A DNA stretch of 64,000 nt, from the IMG/VR virus record IMGVR_UViG_3300025133_000022, positions 64,001 through 128,000 of that record; one strand, given 5' to 3'. Source of the stretch: a virus. This document shows, piece after piece, positions 3,188-52,325 of this stretch. Made by a program: the position numbers and the translations under genes. Positions within the stretch are counted from its first letter, which is position 1, and each line of letters begins with the position of its first letter. The notes under the pieces were generated by a model. That model did not search any database and was not told the origin of the DNA. It saw only the letters and a program-made list of their open reading frames with translations.

Positions 3188-3259
3188 GAGGAATTAGCTC
3201 AGCGGTAGAGCAGCAAATTCTAAACTTGTTTGTCGGGGGTTCGAATCCCCCATTCCTCA
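3188..3259 (+). tRNA. Amber suppressor tRNA (anticodon CTA)
   Basis: GAGGAAT/ATTCCTC acceptor stem; GCTC/GAGC D-stem; GCAAA-TT CTA AA-CTTGT anticodon arm (CTA at 3220-3222, A31.C39 mismatch); GGGGG-TTCGAAT-CCCCC; A73. Confidence 0.85.
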
Positions 3260-3299
3260 CTGCCGTAGGCGTGCGTAGCACGCCTTGTGGATTGAGCTC

Positions 3300-3458: not shown

Positions 3459-3755
3459 ATGGAATACAAAACAATCGAAACAGCATTGAGAAACGCAAGC
3501 GAAAGCGTGAACTTAGCTATCCAGCAGGTTCAGCTAGCGAAAATGAAAGATGAAGCAGTAAGCTGCCACATCCAAATTGCAAGATACTTCAAGATCCATG
3601 ACAACAAGCCAACAACCTACACAGAAATAGCGACTGCTATCGGTCGCCCGAAAAAGTACGTAGCCAACGTGCTTTCTGGTTACTACAAATTCCAGAAGAC
3701 TCAGTGGGGAAAAGGCTGGAAGATGAGAAAATCTTGTCTTAAGCAAGTCCTTTAA
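3459..3755 (+). CDS. Hypothetical protein, possible HTH
   Basis: AAGGA RBS; TYTEIATAIGRPKKYVANVL resembles a helix-turn-helix. Confidence 0.6.
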   Translation: MEYKTIETALRNASESVNLAIQQVQLAKMKDEAVSCHIQIARYFKIHDNKPTTYTEIATAIGRPKKYVANVLSGYYKFQKTQWGKGWKMRKSCLKQVL

Positions 3756-3818
3756 GTAAAAGCAATTAGTTAACGAAGAAATCGTTAACCACGACTGAAT
3801 GCCTGAGCAGATTACATC

Positions 3819-3894
3819 GCCTTCCACGCGGGTAACACAGGTTCAAATCCTGTACTCGGCTTTATGCCGAGTTCGTCTAGCGGCTAAGACACCT
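3819..3894 (+). tRNA. Circularly permuted tRNA-Gly(TCC), cassette A
   Basis: 3' half 3819-3861 (GC-CTTCCAC-GCGGG...ACAGG TTCAAAT CCTGT ACTCGGC U73), linker TTAT, 5' half 3866-3894 (GCCGAGT TC GTCTAGCGGCTAAGAC A CCT); perfect 7-bp acceptor stem. Confidence 0.8.
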
Positions 3895-3966
3895 CAAACT
3901 AATCTCTTGTATCCTTGTCAGTCACCTTCACGCCCATGATTCTGAGGCTGTAAATATCAGACGCAC

Positions 3967-4041
3967 GGCTATGTGGCTCAGTTTGGTTAGAGCAGGGGCT
4001 TCATACGCCCAAGGCCACAGGTTCAAATCCTGTCATAGCCA
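3967..4041 (+). tRNA. tRNA-Met(CAT), elongator or Ile2 type
   Basis: GGCTATG/CATAGCC acceptor stem; loop TTCATAC. Confidence 0.9.
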
Positions 4042-4056
4042 TTTCACACTATTTAA

Positions 4057-4132
4057 TGCGGAGTAGACTGGAGTTTGGTCCCAGCACGGTCTCATAAGCC
4101 GTATGACGTAGGTTCGAATCCTACTTCCGCCT
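4057..4132 (+). tRNA. tRNA-Met(CAT), initiator-like
   Basis: 1:72 mismatch (T.C); ACGGT-CTCATAA-GCCGT; GTAGG-TTCGAAT-CCTAC. Confidence 0.8.
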
Positions 4133-4146
4133 CTTTAGAGAATGCA

Positions 4147-4452
4147 ATGTTTGATATAATAATTCCTTTCCTCATGGGCATCGTTCTTGTCGGTGCTATG
4201 ATGGAAAGAACTCTTACAGTCATTCAAGGAAACATTTCACGAACTGCTGTACTTAGCATTCTTATCAGTTCTGTGTATTGGTTTAACATCCAATATGTAG
4301 CGAGTGGAAATGTAGCTGCTTATATTAGTTTCAGTATAGGAACTCTTATAGTTACCTGTTGGCAAAGCTGGCGAGAAAAACAACGCTATGCTGGACAACC
4401 GGGGAAAAGCAGAAGAATGACTGACAAACTTAAAAATATTAAGAAAGAATGA
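4147..4452 (+). CDS. Small membrane protein
   Basis: Three hydrophobic segments; start re-called past the tRNA (MFDIIIPF). Confidence 0.6.
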   Translation: MFDIIIPFLMGIVLVGAMMERTLTVIQGNISRTAVLSILISSVYWFNIQYVASGNVAAYISFSIGTLIVTCWQSWREKQRYAGQPGKSRRMTDKLKNIKKE

Positions 4453-4654
4453 ACAAGAGTTTTCATCGCAAAAATAACGGCCCTAAGGTACCTAGATCTG
4501 GGCAACCAGTCAGGGAAAAATGTGAATCCTTCATGGACAAAGCATTGTGGTGACGGCAGATAAGCTTCTTGAAGCCCTGTAACGACCGGCAGAAACTCTT
4601 ACCTCCTTGTCTTTCTTATGTATTTGAATACTTAGTATTTCCTATTTACTTTTT

Positions 4655-4730
4655 GTCCTTGTAGCTCAGTGTTTAGAGCGCCCGAACCTGAAAAGCAGGG
4701 AGGTCGTCGGTTAGAATCCAACCAAGGACA
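4655..4730 (+). tRNA. Atypical or pseudo tRNA-Phe(GAA)
   Basis: Perfect GTCCTTG/CAAGGAC acceptor stem and GCTC/GAGC D-stem; loop CTGAAAA, but distorted anticodon stem and TTAGAAT T-loop. Confidence 0.55.
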
Positions 4731-4852
4731 ACAAATACATCTAAGTGCATCCAGACCTTACAGGCAACCCAAGGGTCAAGCCTGCAAGTGAAACTGTACA
4801 TTTGTGGGTACACAAACCCCGTGAGACCGTTCTCGACACGTTAAATCGGAGG

Positions 4853-5035
4853 ACACACGTTAGAATGCCAGAGAAAGATTACATCGTGCCAATTTACGAG
4901 CCGGTGGTTCAACTCCACAGCTAGAAAGCATGTACGCACGTGCAAAGGCGTACAAGGAGCGACGTTGGGTCGCTCATCGTGGATCGAAAGCCCACGATTC
5001 CTAAAAAATCATCTTCTCACCTCTTGTCTAACACC
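4853..5035 (+). ncRNA. Cassette B: conserved flanks enclosing a non-tRNA multi-hairpin RNA
   Basis: Leader GTTAG-AATGCC...AGATTACATC|G; trailer ATCT...TTGT-CTAAC-ACC; cargo has four or five perfect hairpins (TGTACGC/GCGTACA, GAGCGAC/GTCGCTC, ATCGTGG/CCACGAT). Confidence 0.55.
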
Positions 5036-5098
5036 CTTACTCGCGTAGTTGAACCAGCTCGCTTGTACCACGTACGAATGCCCAGTGAGGATTACATC

Positions 5099-5205
5099 GC
5101 CTTATAAGCGGGTGGTCGCAGGTTCGAGTCCTGTCTCTCCAACCATGGTCTTGACGGGCCTGGCTGTTAGCACAGCCGGAGAGTAGCTCAGTTGGTAGAG
5201 CACCT
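5099..5205 (+). tRNA. Circularly permuted tRNA-Ile(TAT), cassette C
   Basis: 3' half 5099-5145 (GC-CTTATAA-GCGGG...CTCTCCA A CCA), 31-nt linker, 5' half 5177-5205 (CGGAGAG TA GCTC...GAGC A CCT). Confidence 0.8.
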
Positions 5206-5304
5206 ACAAACTGATCCCACAATTTCTTGTCGTACATTTTATCGAATTGAGCGTAGCTCAAACCCACCTCAATAACCATAAACAAATGCCAAATAGATTA
5301 CATC

Positions 5305-5380
5305 GTCCCCGCCATATGGGGACGTGGTGTACAGGCGCACACCCTGAGTCCAATCAGGGAGGAATGGGTTCGATTCCCGT
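5305..5380 (+). tRNA. Circularly permuted Trp(CCA)/Gly-like tRNA, cassette D, broken near nt 65/66
   Basis: 3' piece GTCCCC G CCA (5305-5314), linker TAT, 5' piece GGGGACG...CCCTG-AGTCCAAT-CAGGG...ATGGG TTCGATT CCCGT (5318-5380); abnormal loop size. Confidence 0.6.
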
Positions 5381-5631
5381 GTAATAATCTATTCACTTCT
5401 TTGTTGTTTTATGTAGCAACTGCTCCCTAAAAGTACTACATTACCATCGTGGGATACGTCAGGTTAGTCCTGGAAGACTTGGTACGTTAAGCCAAGCGCG
5501 TTAAAGCACTTAAGTGCCTTGACTGGTTTTAATCAGGATACGTCCCCGCGTCTTCACTGTCGCAAGACAGCAACCCTTCAGGTGGGTACTGATTAAAATC
5601 ACCACGATCGAATGCCAGAGTAGATTACATC

Positions 5632-5709
5632 GCTTTTGGAGCCGGTGGTTCCCGGTTCGAATCCGGGTCTCCCTACTATAGAGAGGTAGCTTAATCAGGT
5701 AGAGCACCG
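5632..5709 (+). tRNA. Circularly permuted tRNA-Gln(TTG), cassette E
   Basis: 3' half 5632-5675 (GC-TTTTGGA-GCCGG...CCCGG TTCGAAT CCGGG TCTCCCT A), linker CTAT, 5' half 5680-5709 (AGAGAGG TA GCTT...GAGC A CCG); joining gives a perfect CCGGC/GCCGG stem. Confidence 0.8.
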
Positions 5710-5780
5710 TTAAAACTAATCTCTCACTTCTTTGTCGATCACCTTTTTCATACAAAAAACAACCATACAGATGAGAAAAT

Positions 5781-5930
5781 ATGAGAAGTAGACAATACGC
5801 CAAAATCAAAAGACGAGTACGCTTGCGTCTCATCGACGGCATGGATCCAGAACGTGTCGAAGAATTAAAAAACGAAGAACTAGCTCGCCTTGAAGCAGGC
5901 GAACGACCCTACCGAGCACCATCTCGATAG
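5781..5930 (+). CDS. Small hypothetical protein (49 aa)
   Basis: Hand translation MRSRQYAKIKRRVRLRLIDGMDPERVEELKNEELARLEAG...; protein-like composition. Confidence 0.45.
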   Translation: MRSRQYAKIKRRVRLRLIDGMDPERVEELKNEELARLEAGERPYRAPSR

Positions 5931-5935
5931 AGTAT

Positions 5936-6024
5936 GGTAGGTGTAGCTCATTTGGAGACGCAAGTCGTAGAGCGCCGGGTTGTGATTCCGGAGGTAACGG
6001 GTTCAATCCCCGTCATCTACCCCA
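5936..6024 (+). tRNA. tRNA-His(GTG) with an extra hairpin in the D-loop
   Basis: Encoded G-1:C73 pair and CCA; CCGGG-TTGTGAT-TCCGG; D-loop contains GAC-GCAA-GTC. Confidence 0.85.
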
Positions 6025-6207
6025 AGAACTAGCTAGCCTAGAGAGCACCACAGTTGAGACAACTGTGGGTCAATGTTCTCGCCACGAACAATTTGCTAAA
6101 TAGTGAAGACAGAGAGCCATGAAAAGCGACGACCTGTTGTTCAGAGCCCGTGCCTACCAGGCAGCACGACCGGGCTCACCATGTTGGAATGCCATGTAGA
6201 ATACACC

Positions 6208-6319
6208 GAATCAACGTAAACCCGGCGCCTTTTGGCTTTGTAGGTTCGAATCCTACCTCACCGACCAAAGCTCTTGAAATAAGAGTTAGGTGAGTGGTGA
6301 AATGGTAAACACTCCGGAT
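6208..6319 (+). tRNA. Circularly permuted tRNA-Tyr(GTA), cassette G
   Basis: 3' half with GTA (6216-6218) AA CCCGG, type II variable arm GCC-TTTT-GGC, GTAGG TTCGAAT CCTAC CTCACCG A CCA (to 6267); hairpin linker; 5' half from 6288 (AGGTGAG TG GTG...CAC T CCGGA). Confidence 0.7.
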
Positions 6320-6462
6320 GATTTTATCTTCATCTACACTTCCTTGTCCAACACCCCACGGGAAAGCAACTCTTCGCGTAGAGTTGAGAGGAGCAGGCTC
6401 ACTGCAGTCGCGCCCAGTCGCGACCTTTCCCACCACGACCGAATGCCCTAGATAACTACATC

Positions 6463-6537
6463 GTAAAACTTGAAATTTTAAGGTCTGGGTTCGAGTCCCA
6501 GTGGGTCCACTTTGGGCCTGTGGTGTAACGGTAGCAT
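6463..6537 (+). tRNA. Circularly permuted tRNA with TGA anticodon, cassette F, broken at nt 25/26
   Basis: 3' part G TAAAA-CTTGAAA-TTTTA AGGT CTGGG TTCGAGT CCCAG TGGGTCC A (6463-6509), linker CTTT, 5' part GGGCCTG TG GTGT AACGGTA GCAT (6514-6537). Confidence 0.7.
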
Positions 6538-6573
6538 CAAACATGTTATCTAACTCTTTTGTCGGTCACCTTT

Positions 6574-6650
6574 GCGGGCATAGCTCACGCTGGTAGAGCA
6601 CCTCGTTGCCAACGAGGAGGTAGTGGGATCATCGCCCACTGTCCGCTCCA
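6574..6650 (+). tRNA. tRNA-Gly(GCC)
   Basis: GCGGGCA/TGTCCGC, U73, CCA; CCTCG-TTGCCAA-CGAGG; atypical T-loop ATCATCG. Confidence 0.85.
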
Positions 6651-6745
6651 AGGGTCTTGAAAACATCCCTACTCGTTAGGTAGCATCTTCCTGCTACATT
6701 CTGTCGTCTGCCAAGAGTCAGCGGCAGTCTTATATTGACTCTTAT

Positions 6746-6833
6746 GCGGGGTTAGCTCAGTCTGGCCAGAGCGCCGGCCTTCCAAGCCGGAGGCGAATAG
6801 TTTACACGGGTTCGAATCCCGTACCCCGCTCCA
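6746..6833 (+). tRNA. tRNA-Gly(TCC) with an expanded variable region
   Basis: GCGGGGT/ACCCCGC, U73, CCA; CCGGC-CTTCCAA-GCCGG; variable region of about 15 nt. Confidence 0.85.
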
Positions 6834-39508: not shown

Positions 39509-40545
39509 ACTTCATACAAGGAGTACTTATGCAAACCAAAATCACAGATGAAAAGAAGCTAGAAATTGCTCTAGCTTACCAGCAGGGTCAAAGTACAATA
39601 GAGATTGCAAACAACTACGGCTGCTCGACTACCATAGTTTACAGAGCTCTGAAACTGCTTGAGACTCCTAGGAGAACTGGTGGCCATCAGCCACCAAACT
39701 TCAAAGATACTTACTTTGACCAGATCAACACAGAGGAAAAAGCCTACTTCCTAGGCTTAATCATCGCAGACGGAAGCGTATGTCAGCCCTCCAGGGGCGG
39801 TCAAAAAATTTTCCAGTTGGAACTCCTTGAGCAAGACAACAAGCTCATTGCCCAACTCTGCCAAGAACTCCAATACCCTCTGTCCAGGATTAAAACTTAC
39901 CAGCGAACAGGCAGATCAGCTACAAGCAAAGTCTCAATTACCTCAAACCAACTAGCTAAAAGCCTAGCAAAATACGGAGTGGTTGCAGACAAAGCCCCTT
40001 GGACTGAACTACCCACAATAGACGCAAGCCTGATGAGACATGCTCTTAGAGGACTGTACGATGGCGATGGAAGTATTGCCAAGTACAGACTCGTACTGAC
40101 AGCAGGCAACACAGTGATTCTAAACCAAGTGCGTGACCATCTGATCAGCACCTTAAGCCTGAATCCAAAAGCCATTAGAATCTACAAAACAGGAGAAAGA
40201 GCCTGGGCTCTTTCTATCAACAGAAAGCTGGAAAGACAATCTGTGATGAAGCACCTCTACCAAGATGCTTCTGTCGCTATGCAAAGAAAAGCCCGCTGGC
40301 TGGGCAACCAGTCAGAATAACCATTCCGTGAATTCAGAGAAAGCCCAGAGGTGGGTAACCCTGAGCCAAGCTGTAGAGGAATCTACAGAAGGTGCAACGA
40401 CTAGTGAATACAATCCAGAACGGATTATGAATCACCACGAGCGCGGAACATCCCAAGCGGATGAAGATATAGTCTGAGCTACGCCAATAGCCTAAAAAGA
40501 AAGCGTAGAAGCTCAGGATAAAGAGCCTGAGCGATAACAACACTG
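39481..40545 (+). mobile_element. Group I intron in dnaE
   Basis: Exon ends in U; CCGTGAATTCAGAGAA, AACCCTGAGCCAAG, GTGCAACGACTA and AAGATATAGTCT core elements; terminal G 40545; splicing restores RRAMG|KKK. Confidence 0.9.
39529..40320 (+). CDS. Intron-encoded LAGLIDADG homing endonuclease with an N-terminal HTH
   Basis: AYFLGLIIADGS and ALRGLYDGDGSI motifs. Confidence 0.9.
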   Translation: MQTKITDEKKLEIALAYQQGQSTIEIANNYGCSTTIVYRALKLLETPRRTGGHQPPNFKDTYFDQINTEEKAYFLGLIIADGSVCQPSRGGQKIFQLELLEQDNKLIAQLCQELQYPLSRIKTYQRTGRSATSKVSITSNQLAKSLAKYGVVADKAPWTELPTIDASLMRHALRGLYDGDGSIAKYRLVLTAGNTVILNQVRDHLISTLSLNPKAIRIYKTGERAWALSINRKLERQSVMKHLYQDASVAMQRKARWLGNQSE

Positions 40546-51015: not shown

Positions 51016-51535
51016 CCTTAAGGTTGGAGATCGACTCAGTCGAGTCAGCTACATGAAGATTCTTGGCAAGAGGGGTAACAACTTCTCTGTTGAGAACGAA
51101 GAAGGTATGACCTGGACCGTCGCTGGCTCTATCCTTCAAAACGAAGCCTTCAGCGCAACTCAATTCACTAAGGAACGCGAGGTATCTCGTACTGAAATGG
51201 TTGAGGCCCTTGAAAGCGCTGGTGACAGTGTCTTCACCGTCGTGTTTGACAAAAAGGTTAGTCAGAAATCCATCGCTCAAGAAATCACTGACCTTCAAGC
51301 AGACGAAGAAGGCTTTCAGACTATGAGCAAGCGAGACATCAACAAGTTGGCCAAAACCCTACTAGCAGGTACAGAACGGCGCCTTGTCGGCTATCTAGCA
51401 AGCACTGAGCCAAAGATGGGTCGCAGTACCGTAGTTGATCTTGAGATCGCCACAGATAAGCACAGGCTTCGTCTCGTGGACCACAGGACCATCAAGGAGC
51501 TAGTGCTTCGTAACGTTCGTTACACACTGAAGTAG
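50978..51535 (+). CDS. Hypothetical phage protein
   Basis: AGGAG RBS; FTV.F.KK...GEER.L.G...GRS.V.DL...RLVDHRTI pattern. Confidence 0.7.
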   Translation: MSNTLETRSIPSDLKVGDRLSRVSYMKILGKRGNNFSVENEEGMTWTVAGSILQNEAFSATQFTKEREVSRTEMVEALESAGDSVFTVVFDKKVSQKSIAQEITDLQADEEGFQTMSKRDINKLAKTLLAGTERRLVGYLASTEPKMGRSTVVDLEIATDKHRLRLVDHRTIKELVLRNVRYTLK

Positions 51536-51539
51536 TCCA

Positions 51540-51815
51540 ATGGCCAGCACACCAGCATCAGTCGTTAATCACGCTGTGGTGGAGCTGACCGGACTGGGGA
51601 GGAAGCTGTCGTTCACAGTGATCGGCAGCGACTCCCCAGAGCTCCCTCCGGGGAGCTCTTTCGTTTGCCCAGGCCATGTGTGGTCTGCAGCATTCGCCGG
51701 CAACCACCCGCACGTCAAGTGCGATATCCAGCCAGGACACGTCTACTTCGTAGGCAAGCTAAAGACATTCTGCGCACAGAATGCATGGGGCAGAGAATGG
51801 AGACCATTTAGATGA
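51540..51815 (+). CDS. Hypothetical protein
   Basis: ORF track; coupled. Confidence 0.5.
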   Translation: MASTPASVVNHAVVELTGLGRKLSFTVIGSDSPELPPGSSFVCPGHVWSAAFAGNHPHVKCDIQPGHVYFVGKLKTFCAQNAWGREWRPFR

Positions 51816-52090
51816 AAACCACACCACTAGGCGAGACCTTTACCGGCGTCCTCGAATTCGACGGCGGCATGTACAACAACAGGAGTAGTTGGCTTGTAGT
51901 CAACAGTGACAATCCAAACGTCGCCCCAGGCATGCGATGCCGCGCCATGAACAGCAGACTTGAAACCCTCTTTGAGGGCAAGAGAAAGAACTACAGCTTT
52001 GGCACCGCGCCCAATGGGCGCTTATTTATCACGGGTCGCTTCAAGACCAGGATGCTATACGGCAGTGCCCTCACGGTGCCTCATGCTTAA
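51812..52090 (+). CDS. Hypothetical protein
   Basis: ATGA overlap. Confidence 0.55.
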   Translation: MKTTPLGETFTGVLEFDGGMYNNRSSWLVVNSDNPNVAPGMRCRAMNSRLETLFEGKRKNYSFGTAPNGRLFITGRFKTRMLYGSALTVPHA

Positions 52091-52325
52091 AGAAGACGTA
52101 TTTAAGATCGCGCGGGAAGCGTGTGCGGAAAGTCCTTGCTGGCTAAGAGTGAGCACAGAGTACTCTGGAAAGTTCATCAAGCTGCAAGTTGTTCATCACG
52201 CGCCTCACAAAAGCATACAAGATAGCATTACCATGAGCATCGACCCAGCTTGGGAAAGAGAGTTCATTGTCAAAAGCATTACAAGCACTGTCGACAGGTT
52301 GATTAAATATATTGGAAACAAATGA
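52083..52325 (+). CDS. Hypothetical protein
   Basis: Start re-called to MLKEDV. Confidence 0.55.
   Translation: MLKEDVFKIAREACAESPCWLRVSTEYSGKFIKLQVVHHAPHKSIQDSITMSIDPAWEREFIVKSITSTVDRLIKYIGNK

What the first reader, a model, noticed from the sequence alone, without database searches (positions are those of the whole stretch)
3788..6570. Different break points and terminal ACC repeats suggest the cassette is mobile or captures RNAs
Seen: the tRNA is opened at different positions: nt 29/30 (Gly, Ile, Gln), 25/26 (F), about 32-33 (Tyr) and about 65/66 (D). The flank stays constant and the cargo always starts with G after TACAYC. Cassettes A, E, F and G begin with ACC(AY) and end with ACC. Overlapping the ends at ACC gives a hairpin (e.g. 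CAGTC-ACCAC-GACTG), so each cassette reads as a circular permutation of a tRNA plus a ~65-nt insert, opened in the insert's loop. Inference: repeated independent events, such as integration of circular RNA/cDNA intermediates with an ACC duplication, rather than duplication of a single ancestor.
Basis: inference. Interest (0 to 1): 0.7.

Follow-up and report, generated by a model that had tools for sequence, protein, structure and literature searches.

The report
Phage array of tRNA-mimicking Y RNAs
The "permuted tRNA cassettes" are real, but they are best read as eight copies of a known kind of small RNA (YrlA-type Y RNAs, partners of the Ro60 protein that this marine phage also encodes), not as a mobile element that captures RNAs.

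Summary
Seven cassettes, plus an eighth degenerate one, at window 3793-6567 share a two-strand flank around variable cargo. Five or six cargos are inside-out tRNAs, opened at 29/30, about 25/26, or 65/66.

The constant flank matches the Ro60-binding module of YrlA-type Y RNAs. Rfam RF02553 gives full-length but sub-threshold hits (40.9, 37.6 and 27.2 bits), with the same CGAAUGC, YUAY and CUUGUC signatures. The 192.5-kb phage encodes a Ro60 orthologue 10.8 kb upstream on the same strand, and also an RNA ligase and a tRNA nucleotidyltransferase. It has no reverse transcriptase or RtcB.

Two related phages carry orthologous cassettes at the same position among the tRNA genes, plus lineage-specific ones. 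Where cassettes abut, only CCAC, ACAC or CAC separates them. The "ACC repeat" is therefore a shared junction motif, not an integration scar.

The mobile/capture reading is not supported. The narrower idea that the tRNA modules have several origins stays open.

New relative to print, as far as I could search: the size of the array, anticodon-like 7-nt loops (Salmonella YrlA has none), and two attachment topologies on one scaffold. This scan has noted similar phage arrays on other DNA.

The parts
3793..3923 (+). Cassette A: Y-RNA scaffold with a permuted tRNA-Gly(UCC)-like module opened at 29/30. Acceptor stem closed by TTTAT. ACCAC lies before it and ACC after it.
   Evidence: model R1 119.4 bits (training member); orthologues L040:13100 and L043:12442
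4443..4615 (+). Cassette H: probable degenerate eighth scaffold (P1 GAAAG/CTTTC, AATGAA, TTTTCATC|G, CCTTGTC) with non-tRNA cargo. It overlaps the stop codon of the upstream ORF.
Evidence: P1 and P2 appear in the MFE fold; overall z only -1.0. Not found by R1 at E<=0.05.
4859..5032 (+). Cassette B: scaffold with a T-arm-like hairpin and three further hairpins as cargo. Not a full tRNA.
   Evidence: R1 47.1 bits, E 1.2e-9, not a training member; orthologue L040:14660
5072..5235 (+). Cassette C: scaffold with a permuted tRNA-like module (loop CTTATAA). ACCA is encoded after the acceptor strand, followed by a 32-nt linker containing a hairpin.
   Evidence: Rfam YrlA 40.9 bits, full length
5280..5409 (+). 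Cassette D: the same scaffold attached at 65/66. Order: closed 7-bp acceptor stem with GCCA-TAT, then D arm, anticodon arm (6- or 8-nt loop containing GTC), then T arm.
   Evidence: R1 28.7 bits, E 6.7e-5, not a training member
5606..5740 (+). Cassette E: scaffold with a permuted tRNA-like module (loop TTTTGGA). One extra nucleotide sits in the anticodon-stem region.
   Evidence: Rfam YrlA 37.6 bits
6183..6352 (+). Cassette F: scaffold with a class-II-like permuted tRNA module (Leu-type D arm, long variable region). ACCA is encoded, followed by a 20-nt linker hairpin.
   Evidence: (no ARAGORN cloverleaf); R1 48.0 bits, E 7e-10, not a training member
6437..6567 (+). Cassette G: scaffold with a permuted tRNA module that carries a complete 5-bp anticodon arm (loop CTTGAAA). 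Opened near 25/26.
   Evidence: Rfam YrlA 27.2 bits. Its T-arm/acceptor/D-arm junction matches unannotated DNA beside the Ro-like gene of Streptomyces phages.

Best explanation
The region is an array of eight phage-encoded Y RNAs of the YrlA type, interspersed with ordinary tRNA genes.

Each unit is probably cut out of the long tRNA-cluster transcript. It folds so that its two ends pair. This gives an outer stem (P1, 5-6 bp), a conserved internal loop (GAAUGC opposite CUUUGU), a second stem (P2), and the YUAY-AUC turn. That handle is the docking module for the phage's own Ro60 ring protein.

The variable cargo is the effector module. In five or six units it is a tRNA-shaped domain whose acceptor stem is closed by a loop or linker. 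For that reason it reads on DNA as a circularly permuted tRNA.

By analogy with bacterial and Thermus-phage Ro60/Y RNA particles, the RNA would tether Ro60 to tRNA-binding or RNA-degrading and repairing proteins during infection.

Shown here: the sequence family, the covarying structure, homology to YrlA, the Ro60 gene, and conservation in relatives. Inferred: Ro60 binding, processing and function.
For: 1. Rfam RF02553 (YrlA) aligns full-length (model 1-114) to C, E and G with E 6e-7 to 6e-3. The model consensus carries the same CgaAUGC at the 5' end, CUAc, and cUuGucG at the 3' end. The related cassette in L010 scores 59.4 bits.
2. A Ro60 orthologue lies at G000:C1:55441-57024 on the same strand, 10.8 kb upstream. 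It scores Pfam vWA_Ro60 67 bits and TROVE 23.1 bits, and matches phrog_850. It has about 2,200 homologues, many named '60 kDa SS-A/Ro ribonucleoprotein'.
3. Every other locus with these cassettes that I could inspect also has Ro60. These are L040/L037, L043/L039, L010 (Ro60 directly upstream) and Streptomyces phage TunaTartare ('Ro-like RNA binding protein' 0.7 kb downstream).
4. The consensus fold recovers P1, P2, the T arm, a closed acceptor stem and the D arm. 92.2% of cells are paired, against 70.2% in shuffles and about 40% when partners are slid. 22 of 30 pairs show compensatory change.
5. A model built from nine cassettes finds the non-training units F, B and D full-length, and finds 1-8 copies in other phage contigs.
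6. Non-tRNA or hairpin-only cargo on the same handle (B, H, L010 unit 1, L040 mini units) fits the Y RNA plan of a constant Ro module with a variable effector loop.
7. [quoted passage not shown] It reports Y RNAs beside Ro60 in 22 phages (PMC4201824) and in Thermus phage phiLo (PMC12135203).
Against: All Rfam hits are below the gathering score (best 40.9 against 69), and A, B, D, F and H are not hit by Rfam at all.

The array is 10.8 kb from Ro60, whereas published YrlAs are mostly within 4 kb.

Unlike Salmonella YrlA, these units keep an anticodon-like 7-nt loop. A and C would make formally perfect tRNAs if the handle were excised.

The phage has an RNA ligase (phrog_968, 173.8 bits).

There are no expression or binding data.
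Confidence: 0.85

Rival explanations
1. These are genuine permuted tRNA genes. The handle acts as an intron-like element that is cut out, the two tRNA halves are ligated (by the phage RNA ligase or host RtcB), and RNase P with 3' processing opens the acceptor end to give working tRNAs.
For: A and C give clean cloverleaves with U33, a purine at 37 and sensible anticodons. C, D and F encode CCA after the acceptor strand, and C and F have spacer-like linkers. Acceptor stems are 6-7 bp, the length that made M. smegmatis YrlA an RNase P substrate (PMC4201824). The phage encodes an RNA ligase and a tRNA nucleotidyltransferase.
Against: The junction is not a bulge-helix-bulge: 4 nt and 6 nt of unpaired sequence flank P2, as read from the sequence. 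The host is evidently bacterial. No endonuclease candidate or RtcB was found.

The genome already has canonical Gly-UCC (two copies), Ile-UAU and Gln-UUG tRNAs.

E has an 8-nt loop or bulge, D has a 6- or 8-nt loop, F gives no cloverleaf, and B and H are not tRNAs.

Orthologous units keep the body but change the 'anticodon' (CTTATAA, ATCGTAA, ATTAGGA).
Confidence: 0.07
2. It proposes a mobile cassette, or RNA capture through circular RNA/cDNA intermediates, that integrates with an ACC duplication.
For: Cargo and copy number differ between related phages. L040 has three tandem units where the window has one. ACC/CAC sits on both sides of most units. Attachment points differ (29/30, about 25/26, 65/66).
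Against: There is no reverse transcriptase and no RtcB. Three orthologous groups sit at conserved positions in the tRNA island. The ACC/CAC motif is single and shared between abutting units, and is absent from more distant Y RNA loci. Cargo is no closer to the phage's tRNAs than those tRNAs are to each other. Tandem duplication and divergence, or unequal crossing-over, explains the copy-number differences.
Confidence: 0.04
3. The covarying two-strand flank is a new small self-cleaving or self-splicing ribozyme, split by the cargo.
For: A conserved internal loop sits between two covarying helices. G is invariant after the 5' flank within this phage.
Against: The flank aligns to the Ro60-binding end of YrlA. 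No ribozyme family matched even at E<=10. The 'cut-site' G is not conserved in relatives: T in L043, and T, A or G in L010.
Confidence: 0.03

Closest known systems
YrlA (Y RNA-like A; Rfam RF02553) of Salmonella, Mycobacterium smegmatis and mycobacteriophages (Chen et al. 2014, PMC4201824; Wang et al. 2018, 10.1101/312249)
   Same: A Ro60 module formed by the paired 5' and 3' ends, with (C)GAAUG and YUAY. T arm, closed acceptor stem and D arm come in that order. The attachment is through the top of the anticodon stem. A Ro60 gene lies on the same strand. Seven-bp acceptor stems are like the RNase P-cleaved, CCA-tailed M. smegmatis YrlA.
   Different: There are eight copies rather than one or two, set in a tRNA island 10.8 kb from Ro60. 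D and T stems are as varied as those of different tRNAs, rather than nearly invariant. A 2-5-bp hairpin with a 7-nt anticodon-like loop is present, whereas Salmonella YrlA 'lacks the anticodon loop'. One unit is attached at 65/66. All score below Rfam's gathering threshold.
Deinococcus radiodurans Yrn1 and Thermus phage phiLo Yrl1/Yrl2 (PMC4201824; PMC12135203)
   Same: A Ro60-bound stem-bulge-stem handle with a variable distal module. In Yrn1 the arms run D-like, anticodon-like, then T, as in cassette D. The phiLo work shows that a phage Ro60 binds phage Y RNAs and host PNPase.
   Different: Cassette D also keeps a closed acceptor hairpin with GCCA. There are no binding data here. phiLo has two simple Y RNAs next to its Ro60.
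Circularly permuted tRNA genes of Cyanidioschyzon merolae, other algae and Thermofilum pendens (PMC3978253)
   Same: The gene order is 3' half, linker, 5' half. The ends pair next to the anticodon region. The acceptor end would have to be opened by RNase P or RNase Z.
   Different: Those genes use a bulge-helix-bulge cut by the archaeal/eukaryal splicing endonuclease and yield essential tRNAs. Here there is no BHB, the host is bacterial, canonical tRNA copies make the units redundant, and the handle is homologous to Ro60-binding RNA.
Earlier notes of this scan on other phages (e1-5642347: ten scaffold RNAs with tRNA-derived cargo; e1-5339959: tRNAs carrying a Ro60-docking hairpin in the anticodon arm)
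   Same: Multi-copy Y-like scaffolds inside phage tRNA islands with interchangeable tRNA-derived cargo.
   Different: They concern other genomes and other handle sequences. They are AI notes that I did not re-test.

Membership tests
YrlA-type Y RNA (RF02553) | Reaches Rfam's gathering score (69 bits) | tested here: not met
   Best scores are 40.9 (C), 37.6 (E) and 27.2 (G). All are full-length, with E 6e-7 to 6e-3. L010 unit 3 scores 59.4.
YrlA-type Y RNA (RF02553) | 5' motif GNCGAAN0-1G / CGAA in the Ro60-binding strand | tested here: met
   GAATGC is invariant in alignment A1. CGAATG is present in C, E and G. A, B, F and D have TGAATG, AGAATG, GGAATG and CAAATG.
YrlA-type Y RNA (RF02553) | Conserved YUAY at the junction to the tRNA-like domain | tested here: met
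   TTAC, CTAC or ATAC is present, followed by A(T/C)C, in the seven core cassettes (A-G); the degenerate eighth copy H has TTTTCATC instead. TACATC is invariant in A1.
YrlA-type Y RNA (RF02553) | tRNA-like domain: T arm, loop-closed acceptor stem and D arm, supported by covariation | tested here: met
   helices 3-5 are 94-98% paired, and 12 of 15 pairs show changes on both sides.
YrlA-type Y RNA (RF02553) | Encoded near a Ro60/TROVE gene on the same strand (published cases mostly within 4 kb) | tested here: inconclusive
   Same strand, but 10.8 kb away. In L010 and TunaTartare the units lie within 1 kb of Ro60.
YrlA-type Y RNA (RF02553) | Bound by Ro60 in vivo | not testable with these tools
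   No RNA run holds this phage.
Permuted tRNA genes (BHB-dependent) | Bulge-helix-bulge at the junction of the paired ends | tested here: not met
   Read from the sequence: CATC (4 nt) and, for example, TCAAAC (6 nt) are unpaired next to a 6-12-bp P2. There is no 3-4-3 motif.
Permuted tRNA genes (BHB-dependent) | The product is a needed, canonical tRNA | tested here: not met
   Canonical Gly-tcc, Ile-tat and Gln-ttg genes are present. E, D and F are non-canonical. The 'anticodon' is not conserved among orthologues of C.
Self-cleaving ribozymes / group I introns | Match to a known catalytic RNA family | tested here: not met
   No ribozyme hit in 3700-6700 at E<=10. The only intron in the window is a group I intron at 40257-40493.

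The most novel reading that the evidence does not exclude
Each unit is a species-specific tRNA decoy or adaptor. The Ro60 handle carries a complete tRNA body that still displays an anticodon-like loop. All ten clear hairpins across four phages have 7-nt loops with U at position 2 and a purine at position 6. Their triplets are UCC, UAU, UUG, UGA, UUU, CGU, UAG, GUU and GCU.

The array would present a panel of mock tRNAs to anticodon-recognising factors such as host anticodon nucleases or modification enzymes. It might also couple them to the phage's Ro60, RNA ligase and CCA-adding enzyme for tRNA protection or repair.

Units with 7-bp acceptor stems and encoded CCA (C, D, F) might be opened by RNase P into two-piece, CCA-tailed mimics tethered to Ro60.

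In this reading the modules were derived from different tRNAs more than once.
Probability: 0.15. Interest if true: 0.8.

Novelty: new variant of a known kind. Interest (0 to 1): 0.45.

Why it matters
What the tRNA-like domain of bacterial Y RNAs does is still unknown. This array is a natural experiment on that question. One Ro60 handle carries many different tRNA bodies, some with anticodon-like loops, some with encoded CCA, and one attached at a different site. They sit in a phage that also encodes Ro60, an RNA ligase and a CCA-adding enzyme.

If the modules matter individually, the array points to tRNA-species-specific roles in the phage-host contest over tRNAs.

It also warns annotators that "permuted tRNA genes" in phage tRNA islands may be Y RNAs. 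Cultured relatives, such as Streptomyces phage TunaTartare, have unannotated copies that could be tested directly.

Tried and rejected
- A strict flank pattern in IMG/VR gave 28 loci. Of these, 27 were chance matches inside genes and only L010 was real.
- A single-protein search for Ro60 relatives in viral contigs found nothing. Relatives were reached through the search for homologous proteins and the look-up of encoding contigs instead.
- The genome search could not open the ENA contigs behind L037-L039, so I walked along them using a neighbouring gene.
- No RNA holder is listed for this stretch.
- Laying four marine DNA runs gave only the same phage with no differences, plus unrelated tRNAs of other organisms. 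It gave no information on empty sites or joined forms.
- A relaxed whole-genome scaffold finder was too permissive. It returned 45 and 125 hits per strand, against about 20 in shuffles, and added nothing beyond the eight units.
- Two Wolin-lab reviews are not held in the library, so I could not read what they say about the number of Y RNAs per genome or about the dimeric-tRNA origin model.
- The Rnl1 family search found nothing even in its control genomes, so that blank is uninformative.
- Identity of cargo to the phage's own tRNAs gave no sign of recent copying.
Full report
**What is there.** The window is bases 64001-128000 of a 192,537-bp IMG/VR virus record from a marine metagenome. Between 3793 and 6567, on the + strand and among ordinary tRNA genes, the motif AATGCC, 3-9 nt, ANWACAYC, then G occurs seven times, against 0.04 expected. 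It occurs nowhere else in the genome.

Each copy is preceded by a 5-nt strand. That strand pairs perfectly with the 5 nt that follow a downstream (C)TTTGT(C). A second helix joins the bases just before TACAYC to bases just after the cargo. An eighth, degenerate unit (AATGAA, TTTTCATC|G) lies at 4443-4615.

**The cargo.**
- After un-permuting, A, C, E and G give ARAGORN cloverleaves: Gly-tcc, Ile-tat, an 8-nt ttgg loop, and 'Ser-tga'.
- D holds the acceptor 3' strand, GCCA, TAT and then nucleotides 1-65, so it is opened at 65/66.
- F is class-II-like and gives no cloverleaf.
- B and H are not tRNAs.

**Structure.** Across 21 cassettes from four phages, P1 has 21 different sequences. Nineteen pair fully with their own partner, against 3.8% of non-cognate combinations. 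P2 duplexes average -8.9 kcal/mol with the cognate strand and -5.1 with non-cognate strands.

On a nine-sequence alignment, RNAalifold recovers P1, P2, the T arm, a closed acceptor stem and the D arm. 92.2% of cells are paired, against 70.2% in shuffles and about 40% in slid controls. 22 of 30 pairs carry compensatory changes.

**Identity.** An E-value scan of Rfam gives full-length matches of RF02553 (YrlA, 'Y RNA-like') to C, E and G, at 40.9, 37.6 and 27.2 bits against a gathering score of 69.

The genome encodes a 527-aa Ro60 orthologue 10.8 kb upstream on the same strand. It scores vWA_Ro60 67 bits and TROVE 23.1 bits, matches phrog_850, and has thousands of homologues named Ro ribonucleoprotein.

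The only true IMG/VR hit of the strict motif, L010, has three tandem cassettes directly downstream of a Ro60 gene. One of them carries a plain hairpin as cargo, and another scores 59.4 bits for YrlA.

Part of cassette G matches unannotated DNA in Streptomyces phages. In TunaTartare that DNA lies 0.7 kb upstream of 'Ro-like RNA binding protein', inside a tRNA cluster.

[quoted passage not shown] It lists the signatures GNCGAAN0-1G and YUAY, and reports copies in 22 phages (PMC4201824). Thermus phage phiLo Ro60 binds two phage Y RNAs and host PNPase (PMC12135203).

**Relatives.** Ro60 homologues of 48-72% identity sit on 190-205-kb contigs. By walking along two of them I found six to seven cassettes in L040 and four to five in L043.
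- Three groups are orthologous to A, C and B. The others are lineage-specific.
- The order Pyl-Pro-ORF-cassette(s)-Met-Met is shared with L040. L040 has three tandem units where the window has one.
- Abutting units are separated only by ACCCAC, CCAC, ACAC or CAC.

The ACC(AY)...ACC ends are therefore one conserved junction motif shared by neighbours, probably a processing signal (inference). They are not a duplication made at each insertion. The motif is absent from more distant phage Y RNA loci, which carry one to eight scaffolds each. The G after TACAYC is also lineage-specific.

There is no reverse transcriptase and no RtcB. The Rnl1 search was uninformative. The phage does encode an RNA ligase (phrog_968, 173.8 bits) and a tRNA nucleotidyltransferase.

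The cargo is 61-75% identical to the phage's own tRNAs, the same as those tRNAs are to each other. The genome already has canonical Gly-UCC, Ile-UAU and Gln-UUG genes.

Mobility and capture are not supported. Several origins of the tRNA modules remain possible, for three reasons:
- D-arm types differ, F is class-II-like, and D is attached at another site.
- My model also scores a natural tandem tRNA pair (L040 9017-9140, 41 bits).
- That fits the published idea, quoted in 10.1101/312249, that YrlA arose from dimeric tRNA transcripts.

**What seems new.** Several features go beyond the published YrlA picture that I could read:
- The array has eight members and sits in a tRNA island.
- D and T arms are as diverse as those of real tRNAs.
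- There are two attachment topologies on one handle.
- A hairpin in the anticodon position has a 7-nt loop with T at position 2 and a purine at position 6 in all ten clear cases. The stem covaries (GC/GC, TC/GA, CC/GG). The triplet is conserved among the A orthologues (TCC) but varies among the C orthologues.

Salmonella YrlA lacks an anticodon loop. Earlier notes of this scan report comparable arrays in other phages, so the phenomenon is recurrent.

**Verdict.** These are YrlA-type Y RNAs serving the phage's Ro60 (confidence 0.85), and they form a new variant of a known kind.

Noticed in passing
window 3188-3260; L040 12323-12401: A tRNA with a CUA anticodon (amber suppressor; ARAGORN calls it 'Pyl') is conserved at the same place in the related phage. 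It may serve TAG read-through or partial recoding.
   Followed up: no
window 40257-40493: Group I intron, Rfam RF00028, 62.9 bits against a gathering score of 50.
   Followed up: no
window 5937-6021, 6746-6833, 4655-4730: Three otherwise good tRNAs carry insertions: about 15 nt in the D loop of a His-like tRNA, an 88-nt Gly-tcc, and a 14-nt anticodon region.
   Followed up: no
window 5410-5605: A 196-nt spacer with no ORF, between cassettes D and E, folds unusually well (-58.3 kcal/mol, z = -2.69). It may be a further structured RNA.
   Followed up: partly
window about 6083-6147: A possible ninth, very degenerate scaffold: CCAC, GAACA, ATTTGC ... CCTGT, TGTTC. It is followed by a strong hairpin just before cassette F. 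It was seen by eye only and was not found by model R1.
   Followed up: no
G000:C1:43249-44610 and 51392-52096 (outside the window): An RNA ligase (phrog_968) and a short tRNA nucleotidyltransferase (phrog_2244) lie upstream of Ro60. With Ro60 and the Y RNAs they form an RNA-repair-like gene set.
   Followed up: partly
L050 1512-2326 (IMGVR_UViG_3300032164_000003): About eight tandem scaffold units within 0.8 kb of a 91-kb viral contig. Large Y RNA arrays are therefore not unique to this phage.
   Followed up: no
L060 2888-3023 and 3965-4084 (Streptomyces phage TunaTartare NC_070784): Two or more unannotated Y-RNA-like genes sit in the tRNA cluster of a cultured phage beside its Ro-like gene. 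In sister phage Sham the corresponding stretch lies under a feature annotated tRNA-Ser.
   Followed up: partly
L040 9017-9140: The cassette model scores a natural tandem pair, tRNA-Gln then tRNA-Asn 3 nt apart, full-length at 41 bits. This shows how adjacent tRNA genes mimic the permuted layout.
   Followed up: no
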